Assembly: GCA_009914755.4 (NCBI GenBank)
Contig: CP068257.2
Coordinates: 29,056,001 to 29,120,000, forward strand
Reading direction: 5' to 3'
DNA: 64,000 bases
From: the human T2T-CHM13v2.0 reference genome, Homo sapiens
Shown here: piece after piece, positions 29,526 to 31,508 of the stretch
Layout: every line of letters starts with the position of its first letter
Position numbering within the stretch: the first letter of the stretch is position 1
Notes under the pieces: model-generated
What the model was told of the DNA's origin: nothing
What the model saw: the letters and a program-made list of their open reading frames with translations, nothing else
Database searches by the model: none
Position numbers and translations under genes: made by a program

Positions 29526-29702
29526 TCAATGGCATTTCTTAGAAGCAAAAAATATCAGATCATCTATAACAGAATATTTATTTTCATAACAACCATAATA
29601 ACCGTTACAGCCACAGTGGGTGCTGTGTATACAGCCATACCCACAACCATAGCAAGAGCCAAATCCACAGCTCCCACACACACTTTTGTAATTGAAATAC
29701 AT
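29526..29702 (-). CDS. KRTAP21-3: High-glycine-tyrosine keratin-associated protein paralog, 58 aa (KRTAP21-3-like)
   Basis: I translated this by hand. The protein is MYFNYKSVCGSCGFGSCYGCGYGCIHSTHCGCNGYYGCYENKYSVIDDLIFFASKKCH, ending at a TGA. The ATG context and first ~25 codons align at the nucleotide level to KRTAP21-2. ATG TAT TTC AAT TAC AAA here matches ATG TGT TGC AAC TAC TAC there. The downstream GCGYG repeats are shared. It lies about 29 kb from KRTAP21-2, as expected for KRTAP21-3. It is absent from the ORF track because it is shorter than 60 aa. Confidence 0.6.
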   Translation of the reverse strand: MYFNYKSVCGSCGFGSCYGCGYGCIHSTHCGCNGYYGCYENKYSVIDDLIFFASKKCH

Positions 29703-29767
29703 AGTGTCAGGAGATGAGAATTCAGCCAGGTAACAGCATTTCTGGAGTTTGGAACCCTTGGGATCTT

Positions 29768-29777
29768 TCTATATAAT
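29768..29777 (-). promoter_or_regulatory. TATA-like box (TATTATATAG) for the 58-aa KRTAP21 paralog
   Basis: Plus-strand ctatataata sits about 65-75 bp upstream of the ATG. This is the same position as the TATA box of KRTAP21-2. Confidence 0.4.
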
Positions 29778-31508
29778 AAGAGGTCTGCAAAGTGTGTGCC
29801 ATCCCTACTTTGCCTTCTCATTCCCACAAGAATTTATATTTAACAAGCTTGTTGTTGTTTTATTCTGTGTCCTAAGAAAGCCTCTCATTTTAGACCTTCA
29901 TTTAATTCCTGCAAGTTAATCATAGACTGTAAAAAGTAATTTGTACACTCTGTATACATGTTCTCAGTGAGCCCCAAATGTACACTCCACAAATATCATG
30001 ATGCTAAATCTTGCAGGGAAGTACTTCCCTCAGCTCTAACCCAAAACATTGAGAATCCCCATCCCCAGCCTCCTAGAGAAAGGAAGGGGCTTAGTGATTC
30101 CTACCTTTTCAGGTGCCACCAGTATTACCATCCAATCCACAACTGTACTACTCAGGAGAGGATAGGCATAGGAAGGCTAAATTGAGAAACATGCGTTCAA
30201 TTCTATAATATTAGAATTTATTGAGAACTTTCCTAAAAAACAGAACATGACAGTAGGCACTGCTGAAAATAACATAAAAATAAAAATGAAAAACATAAAT
30301 AAGACCAAGAACAGACCTTCAATGAACTCCCAGCTTAGTAAGGAAGAGAAACATTTACACAAAAAAAGTCTCAGATTGATGCGGTTAGAGAAAAAGGAAA
30401 GAGAAATCCTATGAAATAGACCTCAAAACAATCCAGACCAGGTCCACTTAGGGCCTTCATCCATGCTGGGCTTTCACCTGCAGTTTTTACAATTTAACAC
30501 CCATATCTATGACTCATTCCCTCACTGCCATCAGAGTGTGTTCAAATGTCACTCAAGGAGGCCCTCCCTGAACAGTATTATTTATAGCTAGCACCCTCCC
30601 ACAGATATATCTTTATTCTCTACTTAGCATTTATCAAGCCATTTATCACCATATGATAGACTTGCATTTTACTAATTTTGTTGACTGTTTTTCTCACTGG
30701 AATATAGGATATCTGTGAAGGCAGGAATTTCTTTTTTTCTTTAGGGAATAAAATAGATTTTAAAAAAGTATAATAAACTGGGGCCAAATAATAAAGAGCT
30801 TTGAATATTAAGGTAAAAAGTGTGGAATTCATTCTAAAGGTAATGGAGAACCAGAGAAGATTTTGAGCAAATTAATGGCATAATCAGCTCAATATTTTGA
30901 GATACAGAAATCACAACCATTTATCCAGTGTACTTAGTAATGTCCTATTTCTTCGAAACCATTATTTGCTAAATTATTCTCTTGAGCAAAGATCTTTCCT
31001 TGAGCACTAGCCATGGTTGCATTGAATTTGTGGCATTTTATTTTCCAATTATGTTTCCAGGAACACTAGGACTGGGAGGTATTAAAATGTATTCCAAGAA
31101 ATAGAGTTTCCAAGATTTTAAAATGTGCTATCAAACACTATAAAATAAAAACACCTTCAGAGTATTCACAATTTACATATGCGCTGTAAGTTTTACTTGC
31201 ACCTAAATGCCAGGTATTGTAGTAGGAGTACAAACTGGAACGCCATGATAGCATTTTAATTATCCTTAGGAGGACAACTGTGTAAAGAAAACCAGCTTGA
31301 CATTCTTCAATAAACTAACATATTTGTGTAACAAAATAACTTTTTAAGTTGAGAAATAACTTTTAAGTTCTTTTGAAAGTTATCGTCTTAGAGTATATGT
31401 TCAAATATGAAAATCTTATGAGTGTTCAAGTTTCCAAATCACTAAAGAGACTGTTGGCGTTTTTATACAGCACAAGCAAATAGGCCACATTAAGTCAAAC
31501 AGGTCATC

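What the first reader, a model, noticed from the sequence alone, without database searches (positions are those of the whole stretch)
29526..29830. An intact 58-codon KRTAP21 paralog missed by the ORF track, with divergent N- and C-termini
Hand translation of the minus strand from ATG 29700..29702 gives MYFNYKSVCGSCGFGSCYGCGYGCIHSTHCGCNGYYGCYENKYSVIDDLIFFASKKCH, ending at TGA (plus tca 29526..29528). The 5' flank and first codons are clearly homologous to KRTAP21-2. ...ctgaattctcatctcctgacact ATG TAT TTC AAT TAC AAA matches ...ctgaaatctaacctcctgaa ATG TGT TGC AAC TAC TAC. A TATA-like box sits at the same distance upstream. The gene differs in two ways. The family's signature N-terminal Cys-Cys is replaced by Tyr-Phe. 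The ancestral stop position appears mutated, so ...gct tct aag aaa tgc cat tga aligns to the paralog's ...tgc tac taa. This adds a short basic tail. The length of 58 aa and the position ~29 kb from KRTAP21-2 fit KRTAP21-3. The track's three listed ORFs here (29421..29717+, 29564..29827-, 29236..29445-) are all wrong-frame artefacts of the same repeat.
Basis: partly seen in the sequence, partly recalled or inferred. Interest (0 to 1): 0.5.

Follow-up and report, generated by a model that had tools for sequence, protein, structure and literature searches.

The report
Human KRTAP21-3: known, degenerate hair-protein gene
The 58-codon reading frame is real and is exactly the already-catalogued human hair-matrix gene KRTAP21-3, but it looks like a decaying copy whose tail is a frameshifted reading of the old coding sequence, so it is ordinary rather than new.

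Summary
Window 29526..29702 (minus strand) is an uninterrupted ATG-to-TGA frame of 58 codons. Its product is residue-for-residue identical to human KRTAP21-3 (NP_001157907.1 / UniProt Q3LHN1). It lies 29,112 bp from KRTAP21-2 (58563..58814, minus). The TATA box, 5'UTR, ATG and first 39 codons are homologous to KRTAP21-2 and in the same frame.

One sub-claim is wrong. The basic tail does not come from a mutated stop codon. A 1-nt deletion in an A-run at codon 40 shifts the frame, and the ancestral TAA is still present at 29539..29541, read out of frame. In the ancestral frame the old C-terminal motif is still visible (IFCYR*SDIFCF* against PLCYRRCYSSCY*) but carries two earlier stops. Capuchin monkeys share both.

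Predicted orthologs were found only in apes and New World monkeys, and their ends differ (41, 47/55, 53, 58, 99 and 100 aa) because of indels. Within apes the coding sequence diverges at least as fast as its flanks, with about 9.5 nonsynonymous to 2.5 synonymous changes. Only the human-capuchin comparison hints at weak constraint on codons 1-39.

Verdict: an already known gene, probably a relic frame under little or no constraint. Low interest.

The parts
29526..29702 (-). Annotated CDS of human KRTAP21-3: 58 codons plus a TGA stop
   Evidence: Translation. ORF listed at min_aa 20. Exact match to NP_001157907.1 / Q3LHN1.
29586..29702 (-). Codons 1-39: the part homologous to and in frame with the KRTAP21-2 Gly/Tyr/Cys repeat domain. 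It has one 3-nt and several larger in-frame deletions relative to KRTAP21-2, and CC is replaced by YF at residues 2-3.
   Evidence: DNA alignments. tblastn E=2.6e-8. C+G+Y = 60% over residues 1-40.
29526..29585 (-). Codons 40-58 plus stop: the tail ENKYSVIDDLIFFASKKCH, a -1-frame reading of DNA that once encoded the KRTAP21 C-terminus
   Evidence: Frame 3 reads K*IFCYR*SDIFCF*, against PLCYRRCYSSCY* in KRTAP21-2. Three-way alignment with two paralogs shows a single 1-nt gap. Restoring one base recovers this reading. C+G+Y = 11% over residues 41-58.
29580..29585 (-). A-run GAAAAT containing the 1-nt deletion that shifts the frame. Capuchins carry one more A here, which gives a 41-aa ORF.
29578..29580 (-). 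TAA in the ancestral frame, aligned to the CGA (Arg) codon of KRTAP21-2. It is the first stop in the ancestral frame and is also present in capuchins.
29560..29562 (-). TGA in the ancestral frame, aligned to an AGA (Arg) codon of KRTAP21-2. Also present in capuchins.
29539..29541 (-). The retained ancestral TAA stop codon, aligned to the KRTAP21-2 and relic stops. It is now out of frame inside codons 54-55 of the annotated ORF.
29547..29556 (-). GATATTTTTT: the site of the 1-nt deletion seen in the gorilla T2T and orangutan T2T assemblies, which extends their ORFs to 99 and 100 aa
   Evidence: Ape alignment. Proteins P0007, P0002, P0003.
29532..29534 (-). Codon 57, TGC (Cys). Human-specific: it is TAC (Tyr) in chimpanzee, gorilla and orangutan DNA and in the squirrel-monkey protein, and CAC in capuchin DNA.
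29703..29725 (-). Proximal 5'UTR segment homologous to the KRTAP21-2 5'UTR (CTGAATTCTCATCTCCTGACACT against CTGAAATCTAACCTCCTGAAATC)
   Evidence: The blastn hit extends to 29725. Identical in all apes.
29768..29777 (-). TATA-like box (ATTATATAGA) aligned to the TATATAAAGG of KRTAP21-2. It lies 73 nt upstream of the ATG, against 86 nt in KRTAP21-2. It is conserved in apes and altered in capuchins (TTATAT-GAGAG).
29118..29123 (-). First canonical AATAAA downstream of the stop, 403 nt away (341 nt in KRTAP21-2). A candidate polyadenylation signal; its use is not shown.
58563..58814 (-). KRTAP21-2-type paralog (83 aa, MCCNYY...CYRRCYSSCY*) used as the reference for the ancestral state
   Evidence: Pfam KRTAP PF11759, E=2.4e-7.

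Best explanation
This is the single-exon human gene KRTAP21-3, a member of the chromosome-21 cluster of high-glycine-tyrosine keratin-associated protein (hair matrix) genes. It is a degenerate duplicate of a KRTAP21-type gene. It keeps a TATA-box promoter, 5'UTR, start codon and about 39 codons of the Cys/Gly/Tyr repeat in the original frame. It has lost the N-terminal Cys-Cys and several repeat units. Its C-terminal 19 codons are an out-of-frame reading of the old C-terminal coding DNA, produced by a 1-nt deletion in an A-run. The old frame itself has carried two stop codons since before the split of apes and New World monkeys. The 58-codon frame is therefore an open frame that bypasses those stops. 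It most likely persists under little or no purifying selection in hominids, as a relic ORF kept in gene catalogues. If it is translated in the hair cortex, only the first ~39 residues (8 Cys, 7 Tyr, 9 Gly) could behave like a matrix protein cross-linking to keratin filaments. Shown here: identity, anatomy, the frameshift, and the lability of the ORF end. Inferred: lack of function.
For: Identity: exact match to NP_001157907.1 / Q3LHN1.
Anatomy and homology.
Frameshift and retained ancestral stop: frame 3 reads IFCYR*SDIFCF*; the three-way alignment with KRTAP21-2 and a second paralog relic shows a single 1-nt gap; restoring one base recovers this reading.
The ancestral-frame TAA and TGA are shared with Sapajus and Cebus.
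Labile ORF end: chimpanzee 58 aa; gorilla 99 aa (3-nt plus 1-nt deletions); orangutan 58 or 100 aa depending on the assembly; Saimiri 53 aa, with its middle matching human frame 2; Cebus 47 aa or 55 aa flagged 'LOW QUALITY PROTEIN'; Sapajus 41 aa.
No other relatives among 1.84 billion representative proteins or in the 5.8-billion-cluster search.
Rates: ape CDS divergence is at least that of the flanks (human-chimpanzee 1.7% against 0.55-1.0%; human-gorilla 2.3% against 0.9-1.7%; human-orangutan 2.8-4.5% against 2.5-2.7%). About 9.5 nonsynonymous to 2.5 synonymous changes fall on the ape tree, against a neutral site ratio of 4.4:1; an omega of 0.2 or less is disfavoured, P about 0.05.
A neutral simulation shows the frame stays open with P=0.67 at 5% divergence and P=0.47 at 10%, so openness is not evidence of selection.
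No Pfam match even at E<=10, whereas KRTAP21-2 matches PF11759. No BLASTP alignment to KRTAP21-2.
Gly+Tyr is 29%, below the 35-60 mol% that defines HGT-KAPs (definition in PMC3269608).
The 2012 nomenclature review counts human KAP21 as 2 genes plus 1 pseudogene.
Against: RefSeq, UniProt and Khan et al. 2014 (human KRTAP21 '4(1)') treat it as protein-coding.
The promoter, 5'UTR and ATG are perfectly conserved between human and chimpanzee and nearly so in gorilla and orangutan.
Between human and capuchin, codons 1-39 differ at 6-7% against 10-15% in the flanks, with pN/pS about 0.6. Weak constraint on the N-terminal part, at least in the past, is therefore not excluded.
Counts are small throughout.
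No hair-follicle expression or proteomic data could be examined, and the literature search found none.
The orangutan 58/100-aa difference could be an assembly error rather than a polymorphism.
Confidence: 0.68

Rival explanations
1. KRTAP21-3 is a functional, if divergent, hair-matrix protein. It is transcribed from its TATA promoter in the hair cortex, and the 58-aa product is incorporated into the inter-filament matrix through its 9 cysteines and its Tyr/Gly residues, under weak purifying selection as is typical of fast-evolving KRTAPs.
For: Annotated as protein-coding and counted as intact in Khan et al. 2014. The TATA box, 5'UTR and ATG are conserved in apes. Codons 1-39 diverge about half as fast as the flanks between human and capuchin, with pN/pS about 0.6. 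Residues 1-40 still have 60% C+G+Y. The MYFNY...GCNGY core is recognisable in all nine primate predictions.
Against: Frame-breaking indels in the gorilla, orangutan T2T, capuchin and squirrel-monkey sequences give five different C-termini. Within apes the CDS evolves at least as fast as the flanks, with N:S near the neutral ratio. The family's end motifs and its Pfam signature are lost. No orthologs are predicted outside apes and New World monkeys. No expression evidence was found.
Confidence: 0.24
2. The frameshift created a new, selected C-terminal peptide (an acidic/hydrophobic stretch followed by a basic end). On this reading KRTAP21-3 is a case of new coding sequence arising by frame change, with a function different from classical KAPs.
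For: The squirrel-monkey prediction keeps the same tail frame (KNKYSVVDDPIFFVSKQYH) although its middle is frameshifted. Human, chimpanzee and one orangutan assembly share the tail.
Against: The tail region is the fastest-evolving part: 15% human-capuchin divergence plus indels, and 5% between human and chimpanzee. The tail is replaced by unrelated sequence in the gorilla and orangutan T2T assemblies and is lost in capuchins. The Saimiri prediction is an automatic annotation, and I could not inspect its DNA.
Confidence: 0.06
3. The ORF is a chance open frame in repeat-derived DNA and is unrelated to KRTAP genes.
For: A 58-codon ORF is short, and several wrong-frame ORFs of similar or greater length overlap it.
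Against: Exact identity to a catalogued KRTAP21-3 protein. Significant DNA and protein similarity to KRTAP21-2, including the aligned TATA box, 5'UTR and ATG.
Confidence: 0.01

Closest known systems
Human KRTAP21-3 (NP_001157907.1; UniProt Q3LHN1)
   Same: Identical over all 58 residues. The position, about 29 kb from KRTAP21-2 on the same strand, fits what I recall of the gene order on 21q22.1 (from memory, not tested).
   Different: Nothing. It is this gene. The human-specific Cys57 (Tyr in the other apes and squirrel monkey, His in capuchin) shows the window carries the human allele.
Human KRTAP21-2 / KRTAP21-1 (classical KAP21 high-glycine-tyrosine proteins; Pfam PF11759 KRTAP)
   Same: Same cluster and strand. 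Single-exon layout. Aligned TATA box, 5'UTR and ATG. The CG(S/G)CG(F/Y)GS...YGCGYGC repeat is in the same frame for about 39 codons.
   Different: N-terminal MCCNYY is replaced by MYFNY. About 88 nt of repeat are deleted. The C-terminal CYRRCYSSC(Y) motif is not translated, because of the frameshift plus two stops in the old frame. Gly+Tyr is 29% against 51%. There is no Pfam match and no BLASTP alignment.
KRTAP pseudogenes of the 21q22.1 cluster (human KAP21 listed as '2+1' pseudogene in PMC3269608), including the 5'-truncated KRTAP21 relic in this window at 52726..54236
   Same: Both are decayed copies of the same family in the same cluster, and both have lost essential parts of the ancestral coding frame.
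   Different: KRTAP21-3 keeps a promoter, an ATG and an open 58-codon frame, and is therefore catalogued as a gene. The relic has no ATG and no homologous promoter, but keeps the canonical C-terminus and stop.

Membership tests
Human gene KRTAP21-3 | The protein sequence equals the curated entry | tested here: met
   Exact-sequence look-up returns NP_001157907.1 / UniRef100_Q3LHN1, 'keratin-associated protein 21-3 [Homo sapiens]'.
KRTAP21 gene family (by descent) | Lies in the HGT-KAP cluster next to other KRTAP21 genes, with homologous promoter, 5'UTR, ATG and repeat region | tested here: met
   KRTAP21-2 lies 29,112 bp away on the same strand. Alignment of the TATA box, 5'UTR and ATG. blastn E=5e-8 and tblastn E=2.6e-8.
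KRTAP21 gene family (by protein features) | N-terminal MCCNYY and C-terminal CY(R/F)RRCYSSC motif translated in frame | tested here: not met
   The N-terminus is MYFNY. The C-terminal motif is present only in frame 3 and is interrupted by TAA and TGA.
High-glycine-tyrosine KAPs (HGT-KAP) | 35-60 mol% glycine plus tyrosine (definition in PMC3269608, Table 1 footnote) | tested here: not met
   Gly 15.5% + Tyr 13.8% = 29.3% for the whole protein. Residues 1-40 alone reach 40.0%. KRTAP21-2 has 50.6%.
Pfam PF11759 (KRTAP, keratin-associated matrix) | Score above the gathering threshold | tested here: not met
   No Pfam family at E<=10 for the 58-aa protein. KRTAP21-2 scores 31.6 bits against a cutoff of 21.1.
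Functional protein-coding gene (as opposed to a relic ORF) | Reading frame and length conserved among orthologs, and dN/dS below 1 | tested here: inconclusive
   The frame end is not conserved (41 to 100 aa). Within apes N:S is about 9.5:2.5, close to neutral. For human-capuchin codons 1-39, pN/pS is about 0.6 and divergence is half that of the flanks. Counts are too small to decide for the N-terminal part.
Functional protein-coding gene (as opposed to a relic ORF) | Transcript and protein detected in hair follicle cortex or hair shaft | not testable with these tools
   No expression or proteome resource was available. Literature searches returned only gene lists, plus one use as a 'non-expressed control gene' in cancer cell lines.

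The most novel reading that the evidence does not exclude
After nonsense mutations killed the ancestral C-terminus more than 40 million years ago, a 1-nt deletion in an A-run 'rescued' a longer open frame. The human and chimpanzee 58-aa protein, with its out-of-frame-derived tail (and a human-specific Tyr57Cys), would then be a translated, lineage-specific hair protein. That would make it a small natural example of coding sequence arising by frame change within a structural gene family.
Probability: 0.08. Interest if true: 0.35.

Novelty: already known. Interest (0 to 1): 0.1.

Why it matters
It matters little for discovery, because the gene is already in RefSeq and UniProt. The useful result is a correction. 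The unusual C-terminus of KRTAP21-3 is a frameshifted reading, not a stop-codon read-through. The ancestral frame has been dead since before the ape / New World monkey split, and the ORF end differs in nearly every primate examined. This argues that the 'protein-coding' label deserves scepticism. That is relevant to anyone interpreting KRTAP21-3 variants in exome data, where it appears in several variant and association lists, or counting intact KRTAP genes across species.

Tried and rejected
(1) Chance ORF: rejected by the exact database match and the significant paralog homology.

(3) BLASTP of KRTAP21-3 against KRTAP21-2 gave no alignment at E<=100. The homology shows only at the DNA level or with composition filters off.

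(4) Pfam gave nothing for the 58-aa protein.

(5) The bacterial-type promoter/terminator scan is irrelevant to a mammalian locus and was ignored.

(6) Literature: ten papers mention KRTAP21-3, only in gene lists or as a control gene. Searches for Q3LHN1, KR213 and KAP21.3 found nothing relevant. No human hair-follicle expression paper was found. The original cluster paper (Rogers et al. 2002, JBC, recalled from memory) is not held.

(7) The DNA of the Saimiri ortholog and of the 47-aa Cebus prediction was not retrieved. The Cebus look-up found no record, and no look-up was attempted for Saimiri. The Saimiri 'internal double frameshift' is therefore inferred from the protein alone.

(8) The first orangutan 5' flank alignment contained a misaligned block giving about 21-24% apparent divergence. 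I used the 3' flank and the 150-nt promoter segment instead.
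Full report

Yes. Translating window:29526-29702 on the minus strand gives MYFNYKSVCGSCGFGSCYGCGYGCIHSTHCGCNGYYGCYENKYSVIDDLIFFASKKCH*, which is 58 codons and a TGA with no internal stop.
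- The ORF lister reports exactly this ORF when its minimum is lowered to 20 aa.
Two of them, 29421..29717(+) and 29564..29827(-), are wrong-frame or wrong-strand readings through the Gly/Tyr/Cys repeat.
- The third, 29236..29445(-), lies entirely in the 3' flank and has nothing to do with the repeat.

**2. What is it?**

An exact-sequence look-up in a collection of about 15 billion proteins returns 'keratin-associated protein 21-3 [Homo sapiens]', NP_001157907.1 / UniRef100_Q3LHN1. The chimpanzee and orangutan KRTAP21-3 entries fall in the same 90% cluster.
- A scan of all six frames for Cys/Gly/Tyr-rich ATG-initiated ORFs finds only one other in the window. It is 58563..58814(-), an 83-aa protein reading MCCNYYRNCC...CYRRCYSSCY.
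- That protein matches Pfam KRTAP PF11759 and is the KRTAP21-2-type paralog.
- The two ATGs are 29,112 bp apart on the same strand.

**3. Anatomy compared with the paralog**

A DNA alignment of the two loci lines up three upstream features:
- the TATA boxes, ATTATATAGA at 29768..29777 against TATATAAAGG;
- the 5'UTRs, CTGAATTCTCATCTCCTGACACT against CTGAAATCTAACCTCCTGAAATC;
- the ATGs.

TATA-to-ATG spacing is 73 nt here and 86 nt in KRTAP21-2, so it is similar but not identical. The similarity is statistically significant. blastn gives 75.6% over 78 nt, E=5e-8, and tblastn with filters off gives E=2.6e-8. Plain BLASTP finds nothing, and Pfam finds nothing for the 58-aa protein even at E<=10.

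Codons 1-39 stay in the paralog's frame. They carry a 3-nt deletion after codon 3 and larger in-frame deletions of repeat units. MCC has become MYF. A canonical AATAAA lies 403 nt downstream of the stop, against 341 nt in KRTAP21-2. Whether it is used is not shown.

**4. The tail: a frameshift, not a lost stop**

Translating the locus in all three frames shows that frame 3 reads ...K*IFCYR*SDIFCF*. This is the recognisable remnant of the family's C-terminus, PLCYRRCYSSCY*. I then aligned the tail against two independent paralogs, KRTAP21-2 and the relic at 52.7 kb. That alignment needs a single 1-nt gap in KRTAP21-3, inside the A-run GAAAAT at 29580..29585, which is codon 40. Downstream of the gap the ancestral frame contains three features (coordinates verified):
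- a TAA at 29578..29580, aligned to a CGA Arg codon;
- a TGA at 29560..29562, aligned to an AGA Arg codon;
- the original TAA stop at 29539..29541, still intact.

The annotated ORF reads through this DNA in the -1 frame (…TTT GCT TCT AAG AAA TGC CAT TGA). The old stop is therefore split between codons 54 and 55. The 'short basic tail', and in fact all of ENKYSVIDDLIFFASKKCH, is out-of-frame sequence. Composition agrees with this: C+G+Y is 60% in residues 1-40, 11% in residues 41-58, and 72% in KRTAP21-2.

**5. Orthologs**

Two exhaustive protein searches found relatives only in great apes and New World monkeys. One was a word-indexed search of 5.8 billion clusters. The other was a full HMMER scan of 1.84 billion representatives. 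The predicted products are listed below.

| Species / assembly | Predicted length |
|---|---|
| Chimpanzee | 58 aa |
| Gorilla (T2T) | 99 aa |
| Orangutan (older assembly) | 58 aa |
| Orangutan (T2T P. abelii; also P. pygmaeus) | 100 aa |
| Saimiri | 53 aa |
| Cebus | 47 aa, or 55 aa flagged 'LOW QUALITY PROTEIN' |
| Sapajus | 41 aa |

I retrieved the DNA for chimpanzee, gorilla, both orangutan assemblies, Sapajus and Cebus and aligned it.
- Gorilla has a 3-nt deletion that removes Cys38. It also has a 1-nt deletion in GATATTTTTT (29547..29556).
- The orangutan T2T assembly has the same 1-nt deletion.
- Capuchins have one extra A in the codon-40 A-run. This puts them back in the ancestral frame, where they stop at the shared TAA (GCREK*).
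- Capuchins also carry the downstream TGA. Both ancestral-frame stops therefore predate the catarrhine/platyrrhine split.
- The middle of the Saimiri protein (APTVAVTVIMVV) matches human frame 2. That implies two compensating indels, but this is inferred from the protein only.

In total there are five different C-termini among nine predictions.

**6. Constraint**

Within apes the CDS diverges at least as fast as its flanks.

| Comparison | CDS divergence | Flank divergence |
|---|---|---|
| Human-chimpanzee | 3/177 = 1.7% | 0.55-1.0% |
| Human-gorilla | 2.3% | 0.9-1.7% |
| Human-orangutan | 2.8-4.5% | 2.5-2.7% |

- Counting changes on the ape alignment gives about 9.5 nonsynonymous and 2.5 synonymous changes. 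The neutral site ratio is 142:32. This fits an omega near 1 and disfavours an omega of 0.2 or less (P about 0.05). An omega of 0.3-0.5 is not excluded.
- A neutral substitution simulation keeps the 58-codon frame open with probability 0.67 at 5% divergence and 0.47 at 10%. An open frame is therefore not evidence of selection.
- The one observation pointing the other way comes from the human-capuchin comparison. Codons 1-39 differ at 6-7% against 10-15% in the promoter and 3' flanks, with pN/pS about 0.6.
- That could reflect past function, weak present constraint, or small numbers (7-8 differences).
- Codons 40 to the stop differ at 15% and carry indels, which looks neutral.

**7. Literature**

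- The 2012 KAP nomenclature review lists human KAP21 as '2+1', where numbers after '+' are pseudogenes, and defines HGT-KAPs as 35-60 mol% Gly+Tyr (PMC3269608). KRTAP21-3 has 29%.
- Khan et al. 2014 count 4(1) human KRTAP21 genes (PMC4180150).
- I could not determine which locus the 2012 '+1' refers to. It could be this one or the 5'-truncated relic described below.
- The ten held papers that mention KRTAP21-3 use it only in gene or variant lists, or as a 'non-expressed control gene' in cancer cell lines.
- No expression or proteomic evidence was found.

**8. How it most likely works**

Shown:
- It is KRTAP21-3.
- It descends from a KRTAP21-type gene.
- Its promoter-proximal elements and N-terminal repeat survive.
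- Its tail is frameshifted.
- The ORF end is evolutionarily labile.

Inferred:
- In hominids it is a relic ORF with little or no selective constraint. I put the confidence in this composite at about 0.68.
- If it is transcribed and translated in the hair cortex, only the N-terminal ~39 residues could act like a matrix KAP, through disulfide and Tyr/Gly-mediated contacts with keratin filaments.
- The main rival is a weakly constrained but functional matrix protein (about 0.24).
- A selected new tail is unlikely (about 0.06).
- A chance ORF is excluded.

**9. Verdict**

The gene is already known, so interest is low (0.1).

Noticed in passing
window 52726..54236 (-), with homologous 3' flank down to ~52372: A 5'-truncated KRTAP21-like relic. 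It has a stop-free frame of about 503 codons made almost entirely of CGYGSG-type repeats (TRF period 30 nt x ~46 copies, 81% matches). It ends in the canonical ...CRPFCYRRCYSSCC* plus a 3'UTR about 80% identical to that of KRTAP21-2. It has no ATG and no homologous promoter. From memory, the sequence immediately upstream resembles LINE-1, which would suggest truncation by an insertion. It is possibly the catalogued KRTAP21 pseudogene. The roughly six-fold repeat expansion with the frame preserved is striking.
   Followed up: partly
window 58563..58814 (-): The exact 83-aa KRTAP21-2-type product of this window is 'not in the collection' of about 15 billion proteins, whereas the KRTAP21-3 product is. 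This could be an allelic or size variant of KRTAP21-2, or a gap in the collection.
   Followed up: no
window 29547..29556 (-); loci L003 (gorilla), L004 and L001 (orangutan): The same 1-nt deletion (GATATTTTTT to GAT-TTTTTT) is present in the gorilla T2T and Pongo abelii T2T assemblies but absent from an older P. abelii assembly and from human and chimpanzee. It could be recurrent slippage, a long-lived polymorphism, or an assembly error.
   Followed up: partly
window 29532..29534 (-): Codon 57 is TGC (Cys) only in human. It is TAC (Tyr) in chimpanzee, gorilla and orangutan DNA and in the squirrel-monkey protein, and CAC in capuchin DNA. It is a human-lineage Tyr-to-Cys change in the out-of-frame tail.
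   Followed up: partly
window 45682..45828 (-): A weak tblastn match to the C-terminal half of KRTAP21-2 (E=0.007...RPYSSSCSGYRLSSDLRCH, with in-frame stops). It may be another badly decayed KRTAP fragment or just chance.
   Followed up: no
window ~28900..29000: A poly-T tract is followed by GAGATGGAGTCTCGCTCTGTCACCCAGGCTGGAGTGCAGTGG..., which I recognise from memory as an Alu element in reverse orientation. It starts about 120 nt beyond the candidate AATAAA of KRTAP21-3.
   Followed up: no
window ~55180..55420: A low-complexity TA/C-rich microsatellite-like tract that translates as [11 protein letters not shown] / YEYIYEYIY. It lies between the KRTAP21 relic and KRTAP21-2 and was seen only as spurious tblastn hits.
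   Followed up: no
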